A DNA stretch of 13,750 nt. Source: a virus. Under the pieces are notes generated by a model, which saw only the letters and a list, made by a program, of their open reading frames with translations, made no database searches and was not told where the DNA came from. Position numbers and translations under genes: made by a program. This document shows positions 1,698 to 7,658 of this stretch, in pieces. The stretch's first letter is position 1; every line of letters begins with the position of its first letter. Where the stretch lies: UHGV virus genome UHGV-0152983, one strand, 5' to 3'.

Positions 1698-1880
1698 TCA
1701 CCTTGTTTTCCTCGCACGATGTCTTAGCCACCGGATATCCCACAGGTGAGCCGTGTAATTGAAGGTTTTTACGTCAGATTCTTTTGGGGTTGGCTTGGGT
1801 TTATTTCTGGAGCGTTTCGTTGGAAGGTATTTGCAGTTTTCGCAGATGATGTCGGTGAAACTTCGTCGCTGTCGCCTCAT
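1698..1880 (-). CDS. ninE: NinE-like protein, 60 aa
   Basis: Internal Met of track ORF 1698..1907: [60 protein letters not shown], which matches my recollection of lambda NinE. The ATG overlaps the ninB stop (ATGA). Confidence 0.75.
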
Positions 1881-2323
1881 GCCTCCCTCCCTGTTCGTTG
1901 TGACCATTCATACTCTCGCCGGGAGTCATCACTCCACCGCACGTTGCGCTCTGAGCCGAACCAAAACATGATTTCGATAAGCTCAGTCATGCTGGCCTTT
2001 CGCATTTTGCTGGTACGCACGCCAAGCATGACAACGCCACCGTCGATACCAGGCACACTTCGTTGCTCCAGTTTTTTGGTCTTAAGCCACAGGGCAGTGA
2101 ACAGGTCTTTCCAGTCTTCCGGCGCCAGCCGTTGACCATGCCATAGCACCTGACGCGAAACATCGTTCAGCATCGGCCACATACGGTCATTCTGCGCTTT
2201 GCTACGCTTGGGTTCTTTAACGTGGACTTCGTGGGGTGACTTGTCGTCGATGGGAAGTGAGAGTATTGCGTCTATGGCGTTATTTCTGATTGCTTCGTTG
2301 CGAAGCATGTATATTTGCTTCAT
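1877..2323 (-). CDS. ninB: NinB (Orf-family recombination protein), 148 aa
   Basis: ORF in track; the segment [37 protein letters not shown] and the length match lambda NinB. Confidence 0.8.
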
Positions 2324-2330
2324 CGTTACC

Positions 2331-2537
2331 TCAACTCACAAAACGCCACGCCACTTTTGCTACGACAACAGGCATAACACCGATAATCACCCACAGGAAA
2401 ATGCTACCGAAAAGCACACCAACCAGGTCTTTACCTTCGCCTACCAACCGGACAAAACAGCCAGCAACTACAATGAACGTCGCCACCATCCACAGAGCAC
2501 CGAGAAGCCTCAATGCAGAGAAAATCAACTCAACCAC
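2331..2537 (-). CDS. Small hydrophobic (probably two-helix membrane) protein, 68 aa
   Basis: ORF in track; almost entirely hydrophobic sequence with two apolar stretches; apparent GTG start preceded by GGGGGAGAG. Confidence 0.45.
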   Translation of the reverse strand: MVELIFSALRLLGALWMVATFIVVAGCFVRLVGEGKDLVGVLFGSIFLWVIIGVMPVVVAKVAWRFVS

Positions 2538-2560
2538 GATTTACTCTCCCCCAAATAAAA

Positions 2561-2596
2561 AGGCCTGCGATTACCAGCAGGCCTTTATCTTTTTTT
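2561..2596. terminator. Bidirectional hairpin terminator immediately after the HNH gene
   Basis: AGGCCTGC (2561-2568) / GCAGGCCT (2577-2584) stem with 8-nt loop; T-rich tracts flank it on both strands (ttatcttttttt on +, TTTTATTT on -). Confidence 0.6.
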
Positions 2597-3196
2597 AACA
2601 CGCTTTCGAGTCCTTTTAGATTTTTCCTTAAGATATTCCGCAAGTTTATCCTCATCATTATTAAATTGAGATAAAAGCTCATGCTCGCAATTAAGTGCTT
2701 TACTCGCATAAGTTCCATATAGTTTCTTTCTTGCTAGTGCTGCTATGAATGCTGCATCTTCTTTGCTATCGAAATACCCTAACGATATTGTCTTATTTTT
2801 ATAACCAACATAAGACTTCCACCTGCCAGTTGTCTTATCCCAAGACACTCCAATCGCACCGGATGTGTTTAACCTATTACCTACAATGTTTCTTGCATTC
2901 TGCTCCTCTGTTGCCAGTCTTAGATTTGAAATCCTATTGTCAAGTCTGTTCCCATTTACATGATCAATAAACTTAGGAGGCCATTTTTTGTATACATAGA
3001 ACCAAGCAAGCCTATGCGCATAATACAAAACATTATTTATGCTAATGCATATATAACCACCACTAACACCTCCAGCAATACTACCTTTTACTCTTACTAC
3101 TGAATTTGTTTTTAGCCATTTAAATATTCCTGTTTCTGAGTCATATGATAATGTTGACAGAAGCTCATCGTGATCAATTGGTTTTTTTATTCGCAT
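2585..3196 (-). CDS. HNH endonuclease with AP2-type DNA-binding domain (free-standing homing-endonuclease-like), 203 aa
   Basis: ORF in track; HNH motif IDHVNGNRLDNRISNLRLATEEQNARN; AP2-like segment GVSWDKTTGRWKSYVGYKNKTISLGYFDSKEDAA; gene and flanks are conspicuously AT-rich compared with neighbours. Confidence 0.8.
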   Translation of the reverse strand: MRIKKPIDHDELLSTLSYDSETGIFKWLKTNSVVRVKGSIAGGVSGGYICISINNVLYYAHRLAWFYVYKKWPPKFIDHVNGNRLDNRISNLRLATEEQNARNIVGNRLNTSGAIGVSWDKTTGRWKSYVGYKNKTISLGYFDSKEDAAFIAALARKKLYGTYASKALNCEHELLSQFNNDEDKLAEYLKEKSKRTRKRVKKR

Positions 3197-3278
3197 AAAG
3201 AATATACTTAATAATATATACAGTAAGAACCATTAGTAACGATAACCCTGCTATTAGCTCAGTGATGTAGATGGTCAT

Positions 3279-5159
3279 TTAATACTCCGTCACGTTTTCC
3301 TGTCGCCACGCCTCGTCATATTCCGATTTCGGCATATTGGCGATGTAGCTATATGGCGATCCTGATTCAAGTTGCAGGAACTGGTGCGATTGCTCGTCAA
3401 GGAACAACGGGACACCACCTTCCCAACCTTCGCCGTTACGTTGTTTTTCAAGCATCAAAACAGATGCAGGAGACGCCAGTAGCTGTTCGTCCTTCTCTGA
3501 CATCTTTTCACCACTCTGAACTCTCTGTAACGCTCTCTCGCGAGCCTTGTTACGCCAGATGATGAAAAGGTTGTCTGTCAGGTCTGTTATCGCTCCAGAG
3601 CCTTTTACGTCCATTTTCCCGGTTGGTTTTTCTTCGCTGTCTCCTTTTCGCGAGTGAGTAACGAGAATGACGTGGGAGTTTGTTTTGTTTTTGAAGTCGC
3701 AAATCGAGTCAACAAACGCCTTCTGCCCGTTATAGTCATCGTCGCCTATGCCACATTTCATCAGGCTGTCGATGATGAATAACTGGATCCCGTATCGGCG
3801 GCGAGCGTAGTCGAATATTTCGATCAGCCTGTCGGCTTTCGCCGTTCCGGTCAGGCCAAACACCCAAAGTCTTTCGTCATAAAATTTAAATGCAGAGTCA
3901 ATTTCCAGCACTGGCGGCATCTTGCAGCACGTCGCCTGACGGGTAAGGCGCTTAAGGAGAATACCAGGCTTCAGCTCAAGTGACGCGATGCACGTCTTCA
4001 CACCCTGACGCATTGCCTCAAGTGCCATATGCCCGACAACCTCCGTTTTTCCGTGACCGTTCACCCCATTGACCAGCGTCAACTCTGCCTCACGGAACTG
4101 GAATTTATCTGCCAGAGATTCCCACGGTGGATTAAACAGATACTGCTGCTTGCCGTAGAAAGCGTTGATAGTGTCCTGGTAAAACTCTCGCGCGCTGTAG
4201 AGTTCTTCAGGATCGAAGTAGGATGCCGTGCCGATGTACTGCCAGATTTCATCCTCGGTAACACCGTTCATCAGGCATTCGTTGATGTCTTTGTACGGCA
4301 GAGTAACAAGACGGCAACGATGTTCACCGAGTCGGCTTGCGATTTCCCTTGCGGCTTCACGACCAACATCATCAACGTCCATCGAGATGAATATTTCCTC
4401 AAACCTGTCGAGGTTGTGATACTCAAACTCAATCCACTGTTGCTTAGCGCCTTTCCCGCCACCAAACGGCACGGATAACGCCGAGATGCCGTATTGCGCA
4501 TAGCTCATACAATCAATTTCGCCTTCGCAAAGCACAACCGCCCTCACGCCAGCGTCCAGAGCCTGCCATCCGAACAGGCAAGGTTCGCAATCACCTTCTG
4601 CCATAATGACTTTCTTCCCGTCCGGGCGCTCAGTGCTGATTCGCTTGACCTGCAACAACTCACCATCGCGTTTGTACGGAATCACCAGAGCATCCAGTTC
4701 CCGCTCTCCATTCCACACCTTGCCGCTGACAACCTCGTAGCGCTTTACGATTTCTGGCGATATGCCACGCGATTGCAGGTACTCAAGATGGGATTCTGTT
4801 CTGGTAACGTAGCGGGCGATTTTCTTGCGATCAGGTCTGGAGAATTTCTTCTCACGTCTGGCATCGAAATGGTGATCGTCATCCTTGATACCGAGAAATG
4901 CTTTCGCTTCCTGCATAGCCTGATGCAGGTTAATTCCACGACATGCCATCCACAAATCAAGCATGTCACCGCCGTCTCCCTCAGCGAAATCAGCCCATTT
5001 TTTCTTGCCGCTAAGGTTGACCTTAAGGCTGTTTCCCTTGTCACCGTTGACGTTACCGGCAACCCACTCATGCCCCTCTTTCTTGCCGTTTGGCAACAGG
5101 TGTGGAGCCACCCTGTCAACCTGCGCCCAAAGCAGGTAGCTAAGTTCACTTGGAGTCAT
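3279..5159 (-). CDS. Bifunctional DNA primase/helicase (toprim domain plus DnaB-like RecA-fold ATPase), 626 aa
   Basis: ORF in track; toprim-like acidic motifs (VVLCEGEIDCMS, FISMDVDDVGREAA); Walker A GVNGHGKTE and Walker B LFIIDSLMK; GAGGG Shine-Dalgarno 5 nt upstream of the ATG. Confidence 0.85.
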   Translation of the reverse strand: MTPSELSYLLWAQVDRVAPHLLPNGKKEGHEWVAGNVNGDKGNSLKVNLSGKKKWADFAEGDGGDMLDLWMACRGINLHQAMQEAKAFLGIKDDDHHFDARREKKFSRPDRKKIARYVTRTESHLEYLQSRGISPEIVKRYEVVSGKVWNGERELDALVIPYKRDGELLQVKRISTERPDGKKVIMAEGDCEPCLFGWQALDAGVRAVVLCEGEIDCMSYAQYGISALSVPFGGGKGAKQQWIEFEYHNLDRFEEIFISMDVDDVGREAAREIASRLGEHRCRLVTLPYKDINECLMNGVTEDEIWQYIGTASYFDPEELYSAREFYQDTINAFYGKQQYLFNPPWESLADKFQFREAELTLVNGVNGHGKTEVVGHMALEAMRQGVKTCIASLELKPGILLKRLTRQATCCKMPPVLEIDSAFKFYDERLWVFGLTGTAKADRLIEIFDYARRRYGIQLFIIDSLMKCGIGDDDYNGQKAFVDSICDFKNKTNSHVILVTHSRKGDSEEKPTGKMDVKGSGAITDLTDNLFIIWRNKARERALQRVQSGEKMSEKDEQLLASPASVLMLEKQRNGEGWEGGVPLFLDEQSHQFLQLESGSPYSYIANMPKSEYDEAWRQENVTEY

Positions 5160-5266: not shown

Positions 5267-6043
5267 TCACCTGTCGAAAAACACGTAGCCAGTTTTCGAT
5301 ACGGTGATTGCGGATGATGGTTTGGATTGTGGTTGAATAGTTTCTGGCTTCTCGTCGTTCCAGCGTTGACCGTTCAGGTAGCTCGATGGTAACAACCTGT
5401 CGAATCCGAACTGCTTACCATTCCTGCATGCGATGTCTTCTGCCAGCATCGTGGCAAACTCGCTTGCCGTACCCCTGGTAGTTTTACGCCATTCCCTGAA
5501 CTGTGTTCTGAATGCTGAAGCTGCGTTTTTCTTCCCGGCTTTCCGCATGCCTGCACACCAGAATATTTCCTCGAATGCCTTGTCGGTTTCTTCGTGACGG
5601 TCAGGAGTTTTTTCACACTCTGTTCGGACATGTTCGAACATAATGTTTTTAGGTTCATTGACTGGTTCAAAAGAGTGATAGGTTCTGGGGGCAGCTCCTG
5701 CCCCACCCCCTAGGGCAGCTCCTGCCCCACCCCGGGCAGCTCCTGCCCCACCTGATTCTGGCTGGATTTGTTGTGCATTATCCAGCGTCAGATAAAAAAC
5801 GTTTGACTGGTTAAGCTCTCCTTTTCTTCTGAATTCCCTTTTCAAAAGCCCCATCTCTTCCAGTGCCCTAATGTGACTTTTTACTGTCGATCTGCTCACC
5901 TCACACTGGTCAGCGACATGTTGATATGAAGGCCAGCATTCGCCATTATCATTGGCGTTATCGGCAAGTTTAATCAGAACCAGTTTTCTCAGTGGGTTGC
6001 CAACCTTTATATTCATGGCCTTAGCCATAAGATTCATGCTCAT
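5267..6043 (-). CDS. Replication initiation protein (O-like role) with N-terminal winged-HTH, 258 aa
   Basis: ORF in track; N-terminus NPLRKLVLIKLADNANDNGECWPSYQHVADQCEVSRSTVKSHIRALEEMGLLKR is the HTH type found in phage/plasmid replication initiators; sits directly upstream of the primase-helicase; contains the internal iteron array. Confidence 0.7.
   Translation of the reverse strand: MSMNLMAKAMNIKVGNPLRKLVLIKLADNANDNGECWPSYQHVADQCEVSRSTVKSHIRALEEMGLLKREFRRKGELNQSNVFYLTLDNAQQIQPESGGAGAARGGAGAALGGGAGAAPRTYHSFEPVNEPKNIMFEHVRTECEKTPDRHEETDKAFEEIFWCAGMRKAGKKNAASAFRTQFREWRKTTRGTASEFATMLAEDIACRNGKQFGFDRLLPSSYLNGQRWNDEKPETIQPQSKPSSAITVSKTGYVFFDR
5687..5756. repeat. Three tandem iteron-like direct repeats (GGGCAGCTCCTGCCCCACC), each with internal dyad GGGCAG/CTGCCC; candidate replication origin inside the initiator gene
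   Basis: Copies at 5689-5707, 5713-5731 and 5734-5752; they encode a Gly/Ala-rich linker (GGAGAARGGAGAALGGGAGAA) in the initiator. Same 10-mer TTGACTGGTT flanks the array at 5658-5667 and 5803-5812. Confidence 0.55.
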
Positions 6044-6205: not shown

Positions 6206-6505
6206 TTAAAATTCCATCTGGATTTGTTCAGAACGCTCGGTCTTGCACACCGGGCGTTTTTTATTGGTGAGTCCATCAAGCGCATACTTAAAAGCCCTGC
6301 TAATCGGACTGATGTCTGATGCCATTCCGAAAGCACACAAGACCGAAGCAATAAATCTCCAGTCCGTTCTGCTTATCTTCGATTCATGACAGCCAATCAT
6401 CTTTGCCAGACCGCGCTGGGTAATCGCTGACAGGTTGATGAGTAAATCTGTTTCTGCGCGATCAACGTCGCGCTGTGATAGTTTGCTGTAACTTGTTCTT
6501 TCCAT
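6206..6505 (-). CDS. cII: CII transcriptional activator, 99 aa, lambda-like C-terminus with divergent N-terminal and central region
   Basis: ORF in track; C-terminus LTNKKRPVCKTERSEQIQMEF matches my recollection of lambda CII (TNKKRPAATERSEQIQMEF); position immediately downstream of cro and nutR. Confidence 0.8.
   Translation of the reverse strand: MERTSYSKLSQRDVDRAETDLLINLSAITQRGLAKMIGCHESKISRTDWRFIASVLCAFGMASDISPISRAFKYALDGLTNKKRPVCKTERSEQIQMEF

Positions 6506-6643: not shown

Positions 6644-6853
<210 letters not shown>

Positions 6854-6941: not shown

Positions 6942-7658
<717 letters not shown>

What the first reader, a model, noticed from the sequence alone, without database searches (positions are those of the whole stretch)
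2556..3278. AT-rich free-standing HNH/AP2 endonuclease inserted between the replication module and ninB
The HNH-AP2 protein (2585-3196) is encoded in a strongly AT-rich block bounded by a hairpin terminator (2561-2596) and an AT-rich intergenic stretch (3197-3278). Lambda has ren and then ninB at this position, not an endonuclease. Free-standing homing endonucleases often mark recent mobile insertions and can bias inheritance of flanking markers.
Basis: partly seen in the sequence, partly recalled or inferred. Interest (0 to 1): 0.5.

Follow-up and report, generated by a model that had tools for sequence, protein, structure and literature searches.

The report
Homing endonuclease gene splitting ninA/tR2
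A selfish, AT-rich HNH-AP2 homing-endonuclease gene sits in this E. coli lambdoid prophage inside the tiny ninA gene, at the foot of the lambda tR2 terminator; the gene is already annotated in HK022 and Shiga-toxin phages, so it is an ordinary element whose exact landing site is now mapped.

Summary
Window 2585-3196 (minus strand) encodes a 203-aa HNH_3 + AP2 protein. It lies in the lowest-GC stretch of the window (34% against 45%).

The interpretation as a mobile insertion also holds. Most relatives carry an empty site, including a near-isogenic pair. The cassette has the same junctions behind at least six different upstream genes.

Two details need correcting.
- The "hairpin terminator" is not an end of the element. 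It is the resident lambdoid terminator tR2.
- The "AT-rich intergenic stretch" is coding. It is the remodelled 5' part of ninA, a 26-aa ORF that normally contains tR2.

The net 665-bp cassette entered ninA after codon 11, exactly at the 5' foot of the tR2 stem.

The roughly 73-bp ninA/tR2 element is a near-invariant linker in hundreds of lambdoid phages. About 5% of sites are occupied, and all carriers found are Escherichia phages or prophages. Identical cassette haplotypes occur in unrelated backgrounds, which points to recent spread.

Cleavage and homing themselves are inferred, not shown. The gene is already annotated (RefSeq WP_001220570.1; "homing endonuclease" in phage PA28), so novelty is low. 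The landing site is a modest new detail.

The parts
2585..3196 (-). HNH_3 + AP2 endonuclease ORF (203 aa), the free-standing homing endonuclease gene
   Evidence: AlphaFold model has pLDDT 89.1. Its AP2 part superposes on Arabidopsis TEM1 AP2 (rmsd 1.1 A over 48 columns) and its N-terminal plus HNH part on I-HmuI 1u3e (106 columns, probability 1.00). D78 and H79 are invariant, and N91 and N100 nearly so, in 48 homologues.
2585..3255 (-). Foreign AT-rich cassette. It spans 671 bp where TGTAAC-type empty alleles have 6 nt, a net gain of 665 bp. Against the commonest empty allele (AATAAC) the junction is ambiguous within an imperfect repeat: AATAGCAGG at 3247-3255 and GATAAAGG at 2582-2589.
   Evidence: BLAST breakpoints against empty alleles L001 and L004, junction sequences, GC 0.341.
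3174..3278 (-). ninA' chimeric 34-aa hydrophobic ORF. Codons 1-11 are resident ninA (one substitution, T10A). Codons 12-34 are encoded by the cassette. It overlaps the HNH ATG by 23 nt in another frame.
   Evidence: phrog_5907 (NinA family) matches only residues 1-12, whereas the intact 26-aa NinA matches over its full length at 1.4e-19. The ORF is identical or nearly so in all filled alleles except the frameshifted L014.
3247..3278 (-). Resident 5' arm of the ninA/tR2 linker (ATGACCATCTACATCACTGAGCTAATAGCAGG), shared with empty alleles
2549..2584 (-). Resident terminator tR2 (AGGCCTGCTGGTAATCGCAGGCC plus TTTTTATTTGG). It is intact and directly follows the HNH stop codon. In empty alleles this sequence is the middle of ninA.
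   Evidence: The feature is annotated 'tR2' in phage Nil3 and 'terminator' in HK75. Lambda 40567-40639 matches. Filled and empty hairpins fold equally well, -18.0 against -17.9 kcal/mol.
2530..2584 (-). Orphaned 3' remnant of ninA (would read ...GLLVIAGLFIWGRVNRG*). It no longer has a start codon of its own.
   Evidence: C-terminus of the mechanical ORF 2530..2718, compared with the intact ninA of L001, L004 and P22.
3279..5159 (-). Upstream neighbour: primase/helicase (Toprim_2 + DnaB_C-like, 626 aa). Its stop codon abuts the ninA' ATG.
2331..2537 (-). Downstream neighbour after tR2: 68-aa hydrophobic ORF (phrog_1165), followed by ninB (1877..2323)

Best explanation
This is a free-standing HNH-AP2 homing endonuclease gene (HEG) of foreign, AT-rich origin.

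Where it sits (shown). It has inserted into ninA, the 26-aa ORF that follows the replication genes of lambdoid phages. The insertion point is after codon 11, exactly at the 5' foot of the tR2 terminator stem. The cassette brings its own 23-codon hydrophobic tail, so a 34-aa NinA-like ORF remains. It leaves tR2 intact immediately after the HNH stop codon.

How it is probably expressed (inferred from anatomy). It lies upstream of tR2, is co-oriented with the primase/helicase gene, and has no promoter-like site of its own strand. It should therefore be transcribed only as part of the early-right (pR) operon, meaning during lytic growth and not in the repressed prophage. There is no Shine-Dalgarno sequence, and the ATG lies inside the end of ninA'. 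Low-level translation coupled to ninA', and through it to the primase gene, is therefore likely.

How it probably spreads (inferred). The enzyme recognises the intact ninA/tR2 sequence of a co-infecting or co-resident lambdoid genome. The AP2 domain may bind the GC-rich tR2 stem. The enzyme nicks or cuts there, and recombinational repair copies the cassette from the HEG+ genome. Homology is supplied by the near-invariant arms of 32 bp and about 45 bp. The carrier's own site is protected because its two halves are 665 bp apart.

Outcome (shown). The same cassette, with the same junctions, sits behind many different replication genes and in front of many different nin-region starts.
For: Domains and fold.

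Foreign composition with break points at the junctions.

Empty alleles with the same primase gene: L001 and L004. A near-isogenic pair: L012 (filled) against L004 (empty), with flanks 98.6% and 97.6% identical and only the 671-bp against 6-nt difference.

The target is ninA/tR2.

The linker is near-invariant. In 141 IMG/VR loci found with anchors only, the central 36 nt is conserved at 80-90% or more at every position, between 21 distinct upstream and 35 distinct downstream contexts. The element is in 415 phage records and at about 2870 places in 1972 E. coli genomes.

Occupancy is low: 19 phage records and 144 places in 126 genomes.

The junctions are identical in at least six upstream contexts: primase/helicase, lambda-type Ren, a Ren-like protein, an 89-aa ORF, a P22-type DnaB and an HK022-type DnaB. 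They are also identical in at least seven downstream contexts.

Identical haplotypes occur in unrelated backgrounds. L010 has 0 mismatches in 671 bp against the window, yet shares none of the 1.5 kb upstream. Four HNH haplotypes each occur in two or more different upstream contexts. Filled and empty alleles co-occur in one metagenome, 3300045988.

The ORF is intact in 26 of 27 full copies.

The tight clade (a 521-member cluster at 90% identity) is separated from all other full-length relatives, which are at most 54% identical.

No minus-strand promoter-like site was found in 2200-3500.

HNH + AP2 is a recognised HEG family, and AP2 domains favour GC-rich DNA (PMC10448857, citing Magnani et al. 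2004).
Against: No cleavage, target site or biased inheritance has been measured. Everything after 'the cassette is there' is inference.

Because ninA/tR2 is itself a conserved recombination linker, ordinary homologous exchange in the arms or inside the cassette could also place one ancestral insertion into many backgrounds.

Occupancy is only about 5%, which is low for an efficient drive.

The cassette was not found in any Salmonella phage record, although those phages carry the same target.

Variation in the ORF is 9 synonymous to 8 non-synonymous codon variants, which gives only weak evidence of purifying selection.

Pfam AP2 is 0.7 bits below its curated cutoff. Foldseek E-values are modest, with none at or below 1e-3.

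Many free-standing HEGs cut at a distance from their insertion point, so the cut site need not be the junction.
Confidence: 0.68

Rival explanations
1. Passive relic. A single old insertion of an HEG into ninA is now inactive or irrelevant as a nuclease. It has been distributed among backgrounds only by the ordinary module shuffling of lambdoid phages, through homologous recombination in the conserved ninA/tR2 arms or within the cassette.
For: The ninA/tR2 element is flanked by dozens of different modules in empty alleles too: 21 upstream and 35 downstream contexts. Exchange at this joint is therefore common without any HEG. Occupancy is low, about 5%. Several copies are frameshifted, split or truncated (L014; H114, H151 and H152; 5'-truncated L025, L032 and L033). 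The synonymous to non-synonymous ratio is 9:8.
Against: The left arm available for such exchange is only 32 bp. Cassettes are at least 97.6% identical everywhere, and some are identical over 671 bp in unrelated backgrounds within one sample. The ORF and its catalytic residues are intact in 26 of 27 copies. No close full-length relatives bridge the clade to the rest of the family; the one intermediate, P0004, is a chimera. This points to recent spread rather than long residence.
Confidence: 0.22
2. Competition or exclusion nuclease. The enzyme mainly benefits its phage by cutting rival lambdoid genomes, either superinfecting phages or co-induced prophages. This would be marker exclusion or defence, and copying of the gene would be incidental.
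For: The target is present in most lambdoid phages of the same hosts. The gene sits in the early operon. There is a weak PADLOC match to a 'homing endonuclease' model (E 9.7e-4). HEG-related nucleases are used in phage-phage and phage-satellite conflicts (PMC10448857).
Against: The PADLOC hit is marginal. The gene would be silent in a repressed prophage, so it could not protect a lysogen. Mechanistically this rival overlaps the homing model and differs only in who benefits. No data here separate the two.
Confidence: 0.07
3. Ordinary phage housekeeping HNH. Examples would be a packaging cofactor of the HK97 gp74 type, or a core nin-region or recombination function.
For: HNH proteins can be components of phage packaging machines (Kala et al. 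2014, as cited in PMC12315714).
Against: The gene is absent from about 95% of otherwise similar phages. It lies in the early-right operon next to replication genes, not next to terminase. Its architecture is HNH_3 + AP2, that of homing enzymes. Its composition is foreign.
Confidence: 0.03

Closest known systems
The same gene in phage HK022 and in Stx-converting phages (PA28, 1717, SH2026Stx1, Stx2a_WGPS4/6, Stx2_16002); RefSeq WP_001220570.1
   Same: 97.8-98.7% nucleotide identity over the whole 671-bp cassette, with the same junctions. It is 100% identical in the E. coli W224N prophage, where PGAP calls it 'HNH endonuclease'. PA28 annotates it 'homing endonuclease'.
   Different: The upstream replication gene and the downstream nin genes differ between carriers. 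In the held literature I found no description of its target or of its insertion in ninA/tR2.
HNH-AP2 homing endonucleases (Magnani et al. 2004; 'IPA-HNH' HEGs of ICP1-like phages, PMC10448857)
   Same: An N-terminal HNH domain with a C-terminal AP2 DNA-binding domain. They are free-standing genes in phage genomes and sit at boundaries of genetic exchange.
   Different: This one matches canonical Pfam HNH_3, whereas the ICP1 proteins are too divergent for that profile (PMC10448857). It lives in temperate lambdoid phages. Sequence identity to all full-length relatives outside its clade is at most 54%.
I-HmuI (PDB 1u3e), the intron-encoded HNH homing endonuclease of Bacillus phage SPO1
   Same: The N-terminal beta-sheet plus HNH core superposes (106 columns, rmsd 3.7 A, probability 1.00). 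The D-H...N...N motif aligns.
   Different: I-HmuI is intron-encoded and uses helical and HTH DNA-binding modules. Here the gene is free-standing with an AP2 domain, and no intron was detected (Rfam). Sequence similarity is weak (E 0.39). I-HmuI is a nickase (my own knowledge). Whether this enzyme nicks or makes a double-strand cut is unknown.
Free-standing HEGs that split a host gene, such as mobE in the Aeromonas phage Aeh1 nrdA, or the HEG splitting nrdD in Felix O1-like phages (PMC4837284)
   Same: A free-standing endonuclease ORF is inserted within a coding sequence, leaving two pieces.
   Different: Here the host gene is a 26-aa ORF of unknown function. Its 3' piece has no start codon, and the 5' piece is completed by cassette sequence rather than working as a two-part protein. 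The Aeh1 example is from my own knowledge and was not checked here.
Lambda ninA/tR2 region
   Same: The 5' 32 nt and the tR2 hairpin and U-tract are the resident lambdoid sequence.
   Different: They are separated by 665 bp of foreign DNA. The ninA reading frame is rerouted.

Membership tests
HNH / His-Me finger endonuclease (Pfam HNH_3, PF13392) | Profile match above the curated cutoff | tested here: met
   57.8 bits against a cutoff of 24.8, residues 58-102 covering the whole profile. phrog_99 gives 3.8e-72.
HNH / His-Me finger endonuclease (Pfam HNH_3, PF13392) | Catalytic D-H ... N ... N residues present | tested here: met
   D78 and H79 are invariant, and N91 and N100 are at least 90% conserved, in 48 homologues. 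They align with the DH...N...N of I-HmuI.
HNH / His-Me finger endonuclease (Pfam HNH_3, PF13392) | beta-beta-alpha-metal fold | tested here: met
   The model has pLDDT 89.1. Foldseek finds I-HmuI 1u3e_M with probability 1.00 over 106 columns at rmsd 3.7 A, but the E-value is only 2.8e-2.
HNH / His-Me finger endonuclease (Pfam HNH_3, PF13392) | Metal-dependent DNA cleavage | not testable with these tools
   Needs purified protein.
AP2 DNA-binding domain (PF00847) | Profile match above the curated cutoff | tested here: not met
   32.6 bits against a cutoff of 33.3 (E 1e-7), residues 114-161. This is 0.7 bits short. Precomputed Pfam hits for the 90% cluster representative do list PF00847.
AP2 DNA-binding domain (PF00847) | Three-stranded sheet packed on a helix, superposable on plant AP2/ERF domains | tested here: met
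   Strands at 117-120, 125-132 and 135-142, helix at 145-163. TEM1 AP2 (7et5) gives rmsd 1.1 A over 48 columns at probability 1.00. ERF1 (1gcc) gives rmsd 1.4 A over 51 columns.
Free-standing homing endonuclease gene (HEG) | Presence/absence polymorphism at one precise site in otherwise homologous genomes | tested here: met
   L012 against L004. Window against L001 and L004. About 5% occupancy.
Free-standing homing endonuclease gene (HEG) | Same insertion site in unrelated genomic backgrounds, with a conserved target sequence | tested here: met
   Identical junctions in at least six upstream and seven downstream contexts. The target is near-invariant.
Free-standing homing endonuclease gene (HEG) | Not inside an intron or intein | tested here: met
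   No Rfam intron family in 2200-3600, only two sub-threshold terminator-like hits. No Hint domain. It has its own start and stop codons.
Free-standing homing endonuclease gene (HEG) | Enzyme cleaves the HEG-less allele and spares its own genome | not testable with these tools
   Only inferred, from the separation of the two half-sites by 665 bp.
Free-standing homing endonuclease gene (HEG) | Super-Mendelian inheritance with co-conversion of flanks in crosses | not testable with these tools
   The indirect evidence is identical haplotypes in unrelated backgrounds. A comparison of downstream contexts by eye showed no bias between filled and empty alleles.
Lambdoid ninA (phrog_5907) containing tR2 | 26-aa ORF that starts at the stop of the last replication gene and runs through tR2 | tested here: not met
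   Only codons 1-11 remain in frame. phrog_5907 matches residues 1-12 only (E 4e-4), against 1.4e-19 for the intact peptide. The gene is disrupted here.
Lambdoid ninA (phrog_5907) containing tR2 | tR2 hairpin and U-tract intact | tested here: met
   The sequence equals the features annotated tR2 or terminator in Nil3 and HK75.
Packaging-associated HNH (HK97 gp74 type) | Small HNH protein encoded next to terminase and portal genes | tested here: not met
   The gene lies between primase/helicase and ninB in the early-right operon. It has a different domain architecture.

The most novel reading that the evidence does not exclude
The enzyme is an active gene drive aimed at the one sequence that nearly all lambdoid phages share at the replication/nin boundary. 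By breaking ninA/tR2 it would both copy itself and force exchange of the flanking replication and nin modules. That would make it a direct cause of lambdoid mosaicism at this joint. The cassette may also be adapted to its site: it restores a NinA-like membrane peptide, keeps (and by two base pairs lengthens) the tR2 stem, and takes its translation from ninA'.
Probability: 0.3. Interest if true: 0.5.

Novelty: already known. Interest (0 to 1): 0.3.

Why it matters
By itself this is an ordinary selfish gene that databases already label correctly.

The useful addition is the mapping. The landing site is ninA at the foot of tR2, which is the most conserved short linker of lambdoid genomes and the border between the replication and nin modules.

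That makes one idea directly testable in the best phage genetic system available, lambda crossed with HK022-type alleles. The idea is that homing endonucleases help create the sharp module boundaries of mosaic temperate phages, including Shiga-toxin phages.

It also warns annotators about this region:
- a well-known terminator can look like the end of an element;
- "intergenic" AT-rich DNA here is a rerouted small ORF.

Tried and rejected
- **Literature.** I searched the held library for a description of this HEG or its site, using tR2/HNH/lambdoid, ninA/ninB/homing endonuclease, HNH/ninB/Stx and HK022/homing endonuclease. Nothing specific turned up. Only general support was found (PMC10448857, PMC12315714).
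- **Taxonomic range.** A scan of one genome per species found only an E. coli contig plus two weak AP2-only hits. This says little, because each species is represented by a single genome.
- **RNA elements.** An Rfam search for introns or other RNAs in 2200-3600 gave only two sub-threshold hits on the terminator.
- **Defence role.** PADLOC gave only a marginal 'HEase' hit.
- **Closest divergent relative.** I expected P0004 (62% identity) to show a second lineage at the same site. It turned out to be a chimera of this gene with another HNH-AP2 gene.
- **The 34-aa ninA' ORF as evidence of selection.** I rejected this as proof. By my own estimate, an open 23-codon tail in 34%-GC DNA has roughly a 1 in 6 chance. 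All copies are also too similar to test conservation.
- **The AA/TG polymorphism 8-9 nt from the junction as target-site resistance.** I did not pursue this; there is no evidence either way.
- **First junction estimate.** My initial estimate (6 nt replaced) came from TGTAAC-type empty alleles. The commonest empty allele (AATAAC) moves the left junction 9 nt inward and reveals an imperfect 8-9 nt repeat at the two ends.
Full report
**What is in the window**

The window is the immunity, replication and nin region of a lambdoid prophage. The early-right operon is on the minus strand. It runs in this order:
- Cro-like (6644..6844)
- CII-like (6206..6505)
- an O-like initiator (5267..6043)
- a 626-aa primase/helicase (3279..5159)
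- NinB (1877..2323) and NinE
- an antirepressor

A cI-type repressor (6945..7658) and an N-like antiterminator (9622..9966) are on the plus strand. The cassette itself is 100% identical to part of a prophage in E. coli W224N, and the gene order annotated around it there matches the window.

**Check of the observation**

The ORF at 2585..3196 (minus strand, 203 aa) is there.
- It matches Pfam HNH_3 well above threshold: 57.8 bits against 24.8.
- It matches AP2 just below threshold: 32.6 bits against 33.3.
- It matches PHROG phrog_99 'HNH endonuclease' at 3.8e-72.

The AT-richness is real.
- The cassette is 34.1% GC against 45.0% for the window.
- It is the lowest of all 671-bp windows. The others have mean 45.3%, sd 3.8, minimum 37.1.
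- The flanks are 50.4% and 48.2% GC.
- Cumulative-GC change points fall at 2583 and 3284.

The hairpin is real: 10-bp stem, -18.9 kcal/mol, z -2.9. It scans as a terminator on both strands.

One part of the description is wrong. The stretch 3197-3278 is not intergenic. A 34-aa hydrophobic ORF (3174..3278, MTIYITELIAGLSLLMVLTVYIIKYILYANKKTN) begins right after the primase stop codon (TAA|ATG). It overlaps the HNH start by 23 nt in another frame.

**Empty sites and the identity of the target**

Two phages with the same primase/helicase lack the HNH gene: Stx2a_F451 (L001) and phiKp_30 (L004). In them the sequence from window 3256-3278 runs, after 6 nt, straight into the hairpin of window 2544-2584.

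Read on the minus strand, that uninterrupted sequence is a small ORF: MTIYITELVTGLLVIAGLF.... The "terminator hairpin" lies inside it.

A search with this element found it in 415 phage records at 93-100% identity. These include lambda (40567-40639, between ren and ninB), P22, HK97-like phages and Stx phages.

Public records name the two features.
- The ORF is ninA (26 aa in P22; also listed in PMC4837284).
- The hairpin is terminator tR2 (annotated in Nil3 and HK75).

The intact 26-aa peptide matches phrog_5907 at 1.4e-19. The window's 34-aa ORF matches it only over residues 1-12.

Lambda tR2 is a standard model intrinsic terminator with a near-perfect U-tract (bioRxiv 10.1101/453969). That agrees with the tail TTTTTATTTGG seen here.

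**Exact junctions**

Against TGTAAC-type empty alleles, 671 bp (2585-3255) replace 6 nt.

The commonest empty allele reads ...GAGCTAATAACAGG|CCTGCTGG... (81 of 141 loci). Against it, homology on the left extends to 3247 (AATAGCAGG). The right end (GATAAAGG, 2582-2589) is an imperfect repeat of the same 8-9 nt. The junction is therefore ambiguous within that repeat, and the net gain is 665 bp.

In coding terms, the cassette entered ninA after codon 11, at the first base of the tR2 stem. Three consequences follow.
- ninA' keeps codons 1-11 (T10A) and is completed by 23 cassette-encoded codons. These again form a strongly hydrophobic segment (best 19-aa hydropathy 2.19, against 2.04 for NinA).
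- The old ninA 3' end (...GLLVIAGLFIWGRVNRG*) is orphaned.
- tR2 is intact and folds as well as in empty alleles (-18.0 against -17.9 kcal/mol). Its stem is extended by A/T pairs from the A-run at the end of the HNH gene, which is why it also scans as a plus-strand terminator.

**Evidence that the cassette is mobile**

*1. Near-isogenic pair.* L012 (filled) and L004 (empty) are 98.6% identical over 794 bp upstream and 97.6% identical over 945 bp downstream. They differ only by the cassette.

*2. Frequency.*
- 19 of about 415 phage records carry it.
- It occupies 144 places in 126 complete E. coli genomes. The linker has about 2870 places in 1972 genomes.
- All carriers with a named host are Escherichia. 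None of the 94 Salmonella phage records that have the linker carries it.

*3. One site, many backgrounds.* In 27 full-length IMG/VR copies both junctions are the same. The gene upstream varies: the primase/helicase, lambda-type Ren, a Ren-like protein, an 89-aa ORF, a P22-type DnaB or an HK022-type DnaB. At least seven different sequences follow tR2.

*4. Identical haplotypes in unrelated backgrounds.*
- L010 has 0 mismatches in 671 bp against the window, but shares none of the 1.5 kb upstream.
- Four HNH haplotypes each occur behind two or more different upstream genes.
- Filled and empty alleles come from the same metagenome.

*5. A tight clade.* Copies are at least 97.6% identical. The 521-member 90% cluster is followed by a gap to relatives at 54% identity or less. 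The one intermediate, P0004, is a chimera.

*6. Integrity.* The ORF is intact in 26 of 27 copies. One copy has an extra A in the A7 run at codons 3-5. A few E. coli copies are split or truncated.

**The protein**

An AlphaFold model built from 48 homologues is confident (pLDDT 89.1, pTM 0.75).
- Residues about 1-106 superpose on the homing endonuclease I-HmuI (1u3e; 106 columns, rmsd 3.7 A, probability 1.00).
- Residues about 114-163 superpose on plant AP2/ERF domains (TEM1 at rmsd 1.1 A over 48 columns; ERF1 at 1.4 A over 51 columns).
- Foldseek E-values are modest, as expected for a two-domain query.
- D78 and H79 are invariant, and N91 and N100 nearly so.

HNH + AP2 is a recognised family of homing endonucleases, and AP2 domains favour GC-rich DNA (PMC10448857, citing Magnani et al. 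2004). The tR2 stem is the GC-rich feature next to the insertion point. That the AP2 domain binds it is my inference.

**Most likely mechanism**

*Shown:*
- anatomy and distribution;
- the gene is co-oriented with the primase/helicase gene and directly downstream of it;
- it lies upstream of tR2;
- no minus-strand promoter-like site was found in 2200-3500;
- there is no Shine-Dalgarno sequence before the ATG, which lies inside the 3' end of ninA' (sequence).

*Inferred:*
- transcription only as part of the pR operon, so the gene is silent in the repressed prophage;
- weak translation coupled to ninA', and through it to the primase gene;
- recognition and cleavage (or nicking) of intact ninA/tR2 in co-infecting or co-induced lambdoid genomes;
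- recombinational repair from the HEG+ copy, using the conserved arms of 32 bp and about 45 bp, with co-conversion of neighbouring modules;
- self-protection, because the half-sites are 665 bp apart.

I put this at about 0.68.

The main rival (about 0.22) is a passive relic spread by the ordinary recombination that clearly happens at this linker. Empty alleles are flanked by 21 upstream and 35 downstream contexts. Low occupancy and a 9:8 synonymous to non-synonymous ratio fit that rival. The short left arm, the identical haplotypes in unrelated backgrounds and the intact catalytic site argue against it.

A role mainly in excluding competitors is possible and overlaps mechanistically with homing.

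A housekeeping HNH of the packaging type is excluded by position, distribution and architecture.

**Comparison with what is known, and novelty**

The gene is already in public records.
- It is in HK022 at 98.7% identity. The match in AF069308 lies under ORFs annotated only as hypothetical proteins.
- It is in several Stx phages as 'HNH endonuclease' or 'homing endonuclease'.
- It is in RefSeq as WP_001220570.1.

It belongs to a known kind, the free-standing HNH-AP2 HEGs.

What I did not find described in the held literature is the landing site: inside ninA at the foot of tR2. That library lacks most subscription journals, so absence there is weak evidence.

I therefore rate it already known, with a modest new anatomical detail and a testable link to lambdoid mosaicism. 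Interest is 0.3.

Noticed in passing
window ~4047-4049 (within primase/helicase 3279..5159, minus strand); L001 4093-5118; L004 2979-4003: The window's 626-aa primase/helicase is an intein-less allele. The otherwise ~99% identical genes of Stx2a_F451 and phiKp_30 carry about 1025 extra bp at this point, with Hint and LAGLIDADG_3 homing-endonuclease hits. This is a second selfish-element site about 0.8 kb from the HNH cassette, empty here.
   Followed up: partly
L016 529-2922 (IMG/VR 2690315742_000008) compared with L015 1546-2922: The DnaB-type helicase directly upstream of the same HNH cassette is 797 aa in L016 and 458 aa in L015. The extra part hits LAGLIDADG_3 and Hom_end. It is a DnaB intein next to the ninA HEG, so two homing elements sit side by side.
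   Followed up: partly
L039 4918-5520 (Logan SRR10380363_203): A chimeric HNH gene. ninA' and about the first 58 codons are nearly identical to the window's. The rest is a different, GC-richer HNH-AP2 gene that runs straight into rusA. tR2, ninB and the other nin genes are missing. It looks like recombination between two paralogous HNH genes, producing a natural nin-type deletion that removes tR2.
   Followed up: partly
window 7745-8323 and 8320-9249 (plus strand): Two overlapping AT-rich ORFs (192 and 309 aa; low-GC segments 7828-8206 and 8615-9203) lie between the cI-type repressor and the N-like gene. This is the position of rexAB in lambda. The first ORF matches the PADLOC candidate defence family PDC-M63A (2.2e-10). 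The second has only an unknown-function PHROG. They are possibly a prophage-expressed defence pair.
   Followed up: partly
window ~3183-3189 (A7 run, HNH codons 3-5): A homopolymer A7 lies just after the HNH start. IMG/VR locus L014 has A8, which truncates HNH to 7 aa and extends ninA' to 55 aa. It is a likely mutational on/off hot spot. E. coli copy H114 is also annotated as two pieces.
   Followed up: no
window 2331-2537 (minus strand): A 68-aa strongly hydrophobic ORF (phrog_1165, unknown function) starts with GTG just after tR2. It uses the GGGGGAGAG that serves as the ninB ribosome-binding site in lambda. It is one of at least seven alternative first genes after tR2.
   Followed up: no
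NZ_CP148466.1 (E. coli Z1323CEC0006) and other genomes: Some genomes carry two or three copies of the cassette: 144 places in 126 genomes, up to 3 per genome. Whether these are in different co-resident prophages with identical haplotypes, which would indicate spread within the cell, could not be checked with the tools.
   Followed up: no
L025, L032, L033 (IMG/VR); phage 1717 and E. coli VR50: Several copies lack the first 8-24 nt of the cassette and the ninA 5' arm. Unrelated sequence is joined there. This indicates secondary rearrangements at the upstream junction.
   Followed up: no
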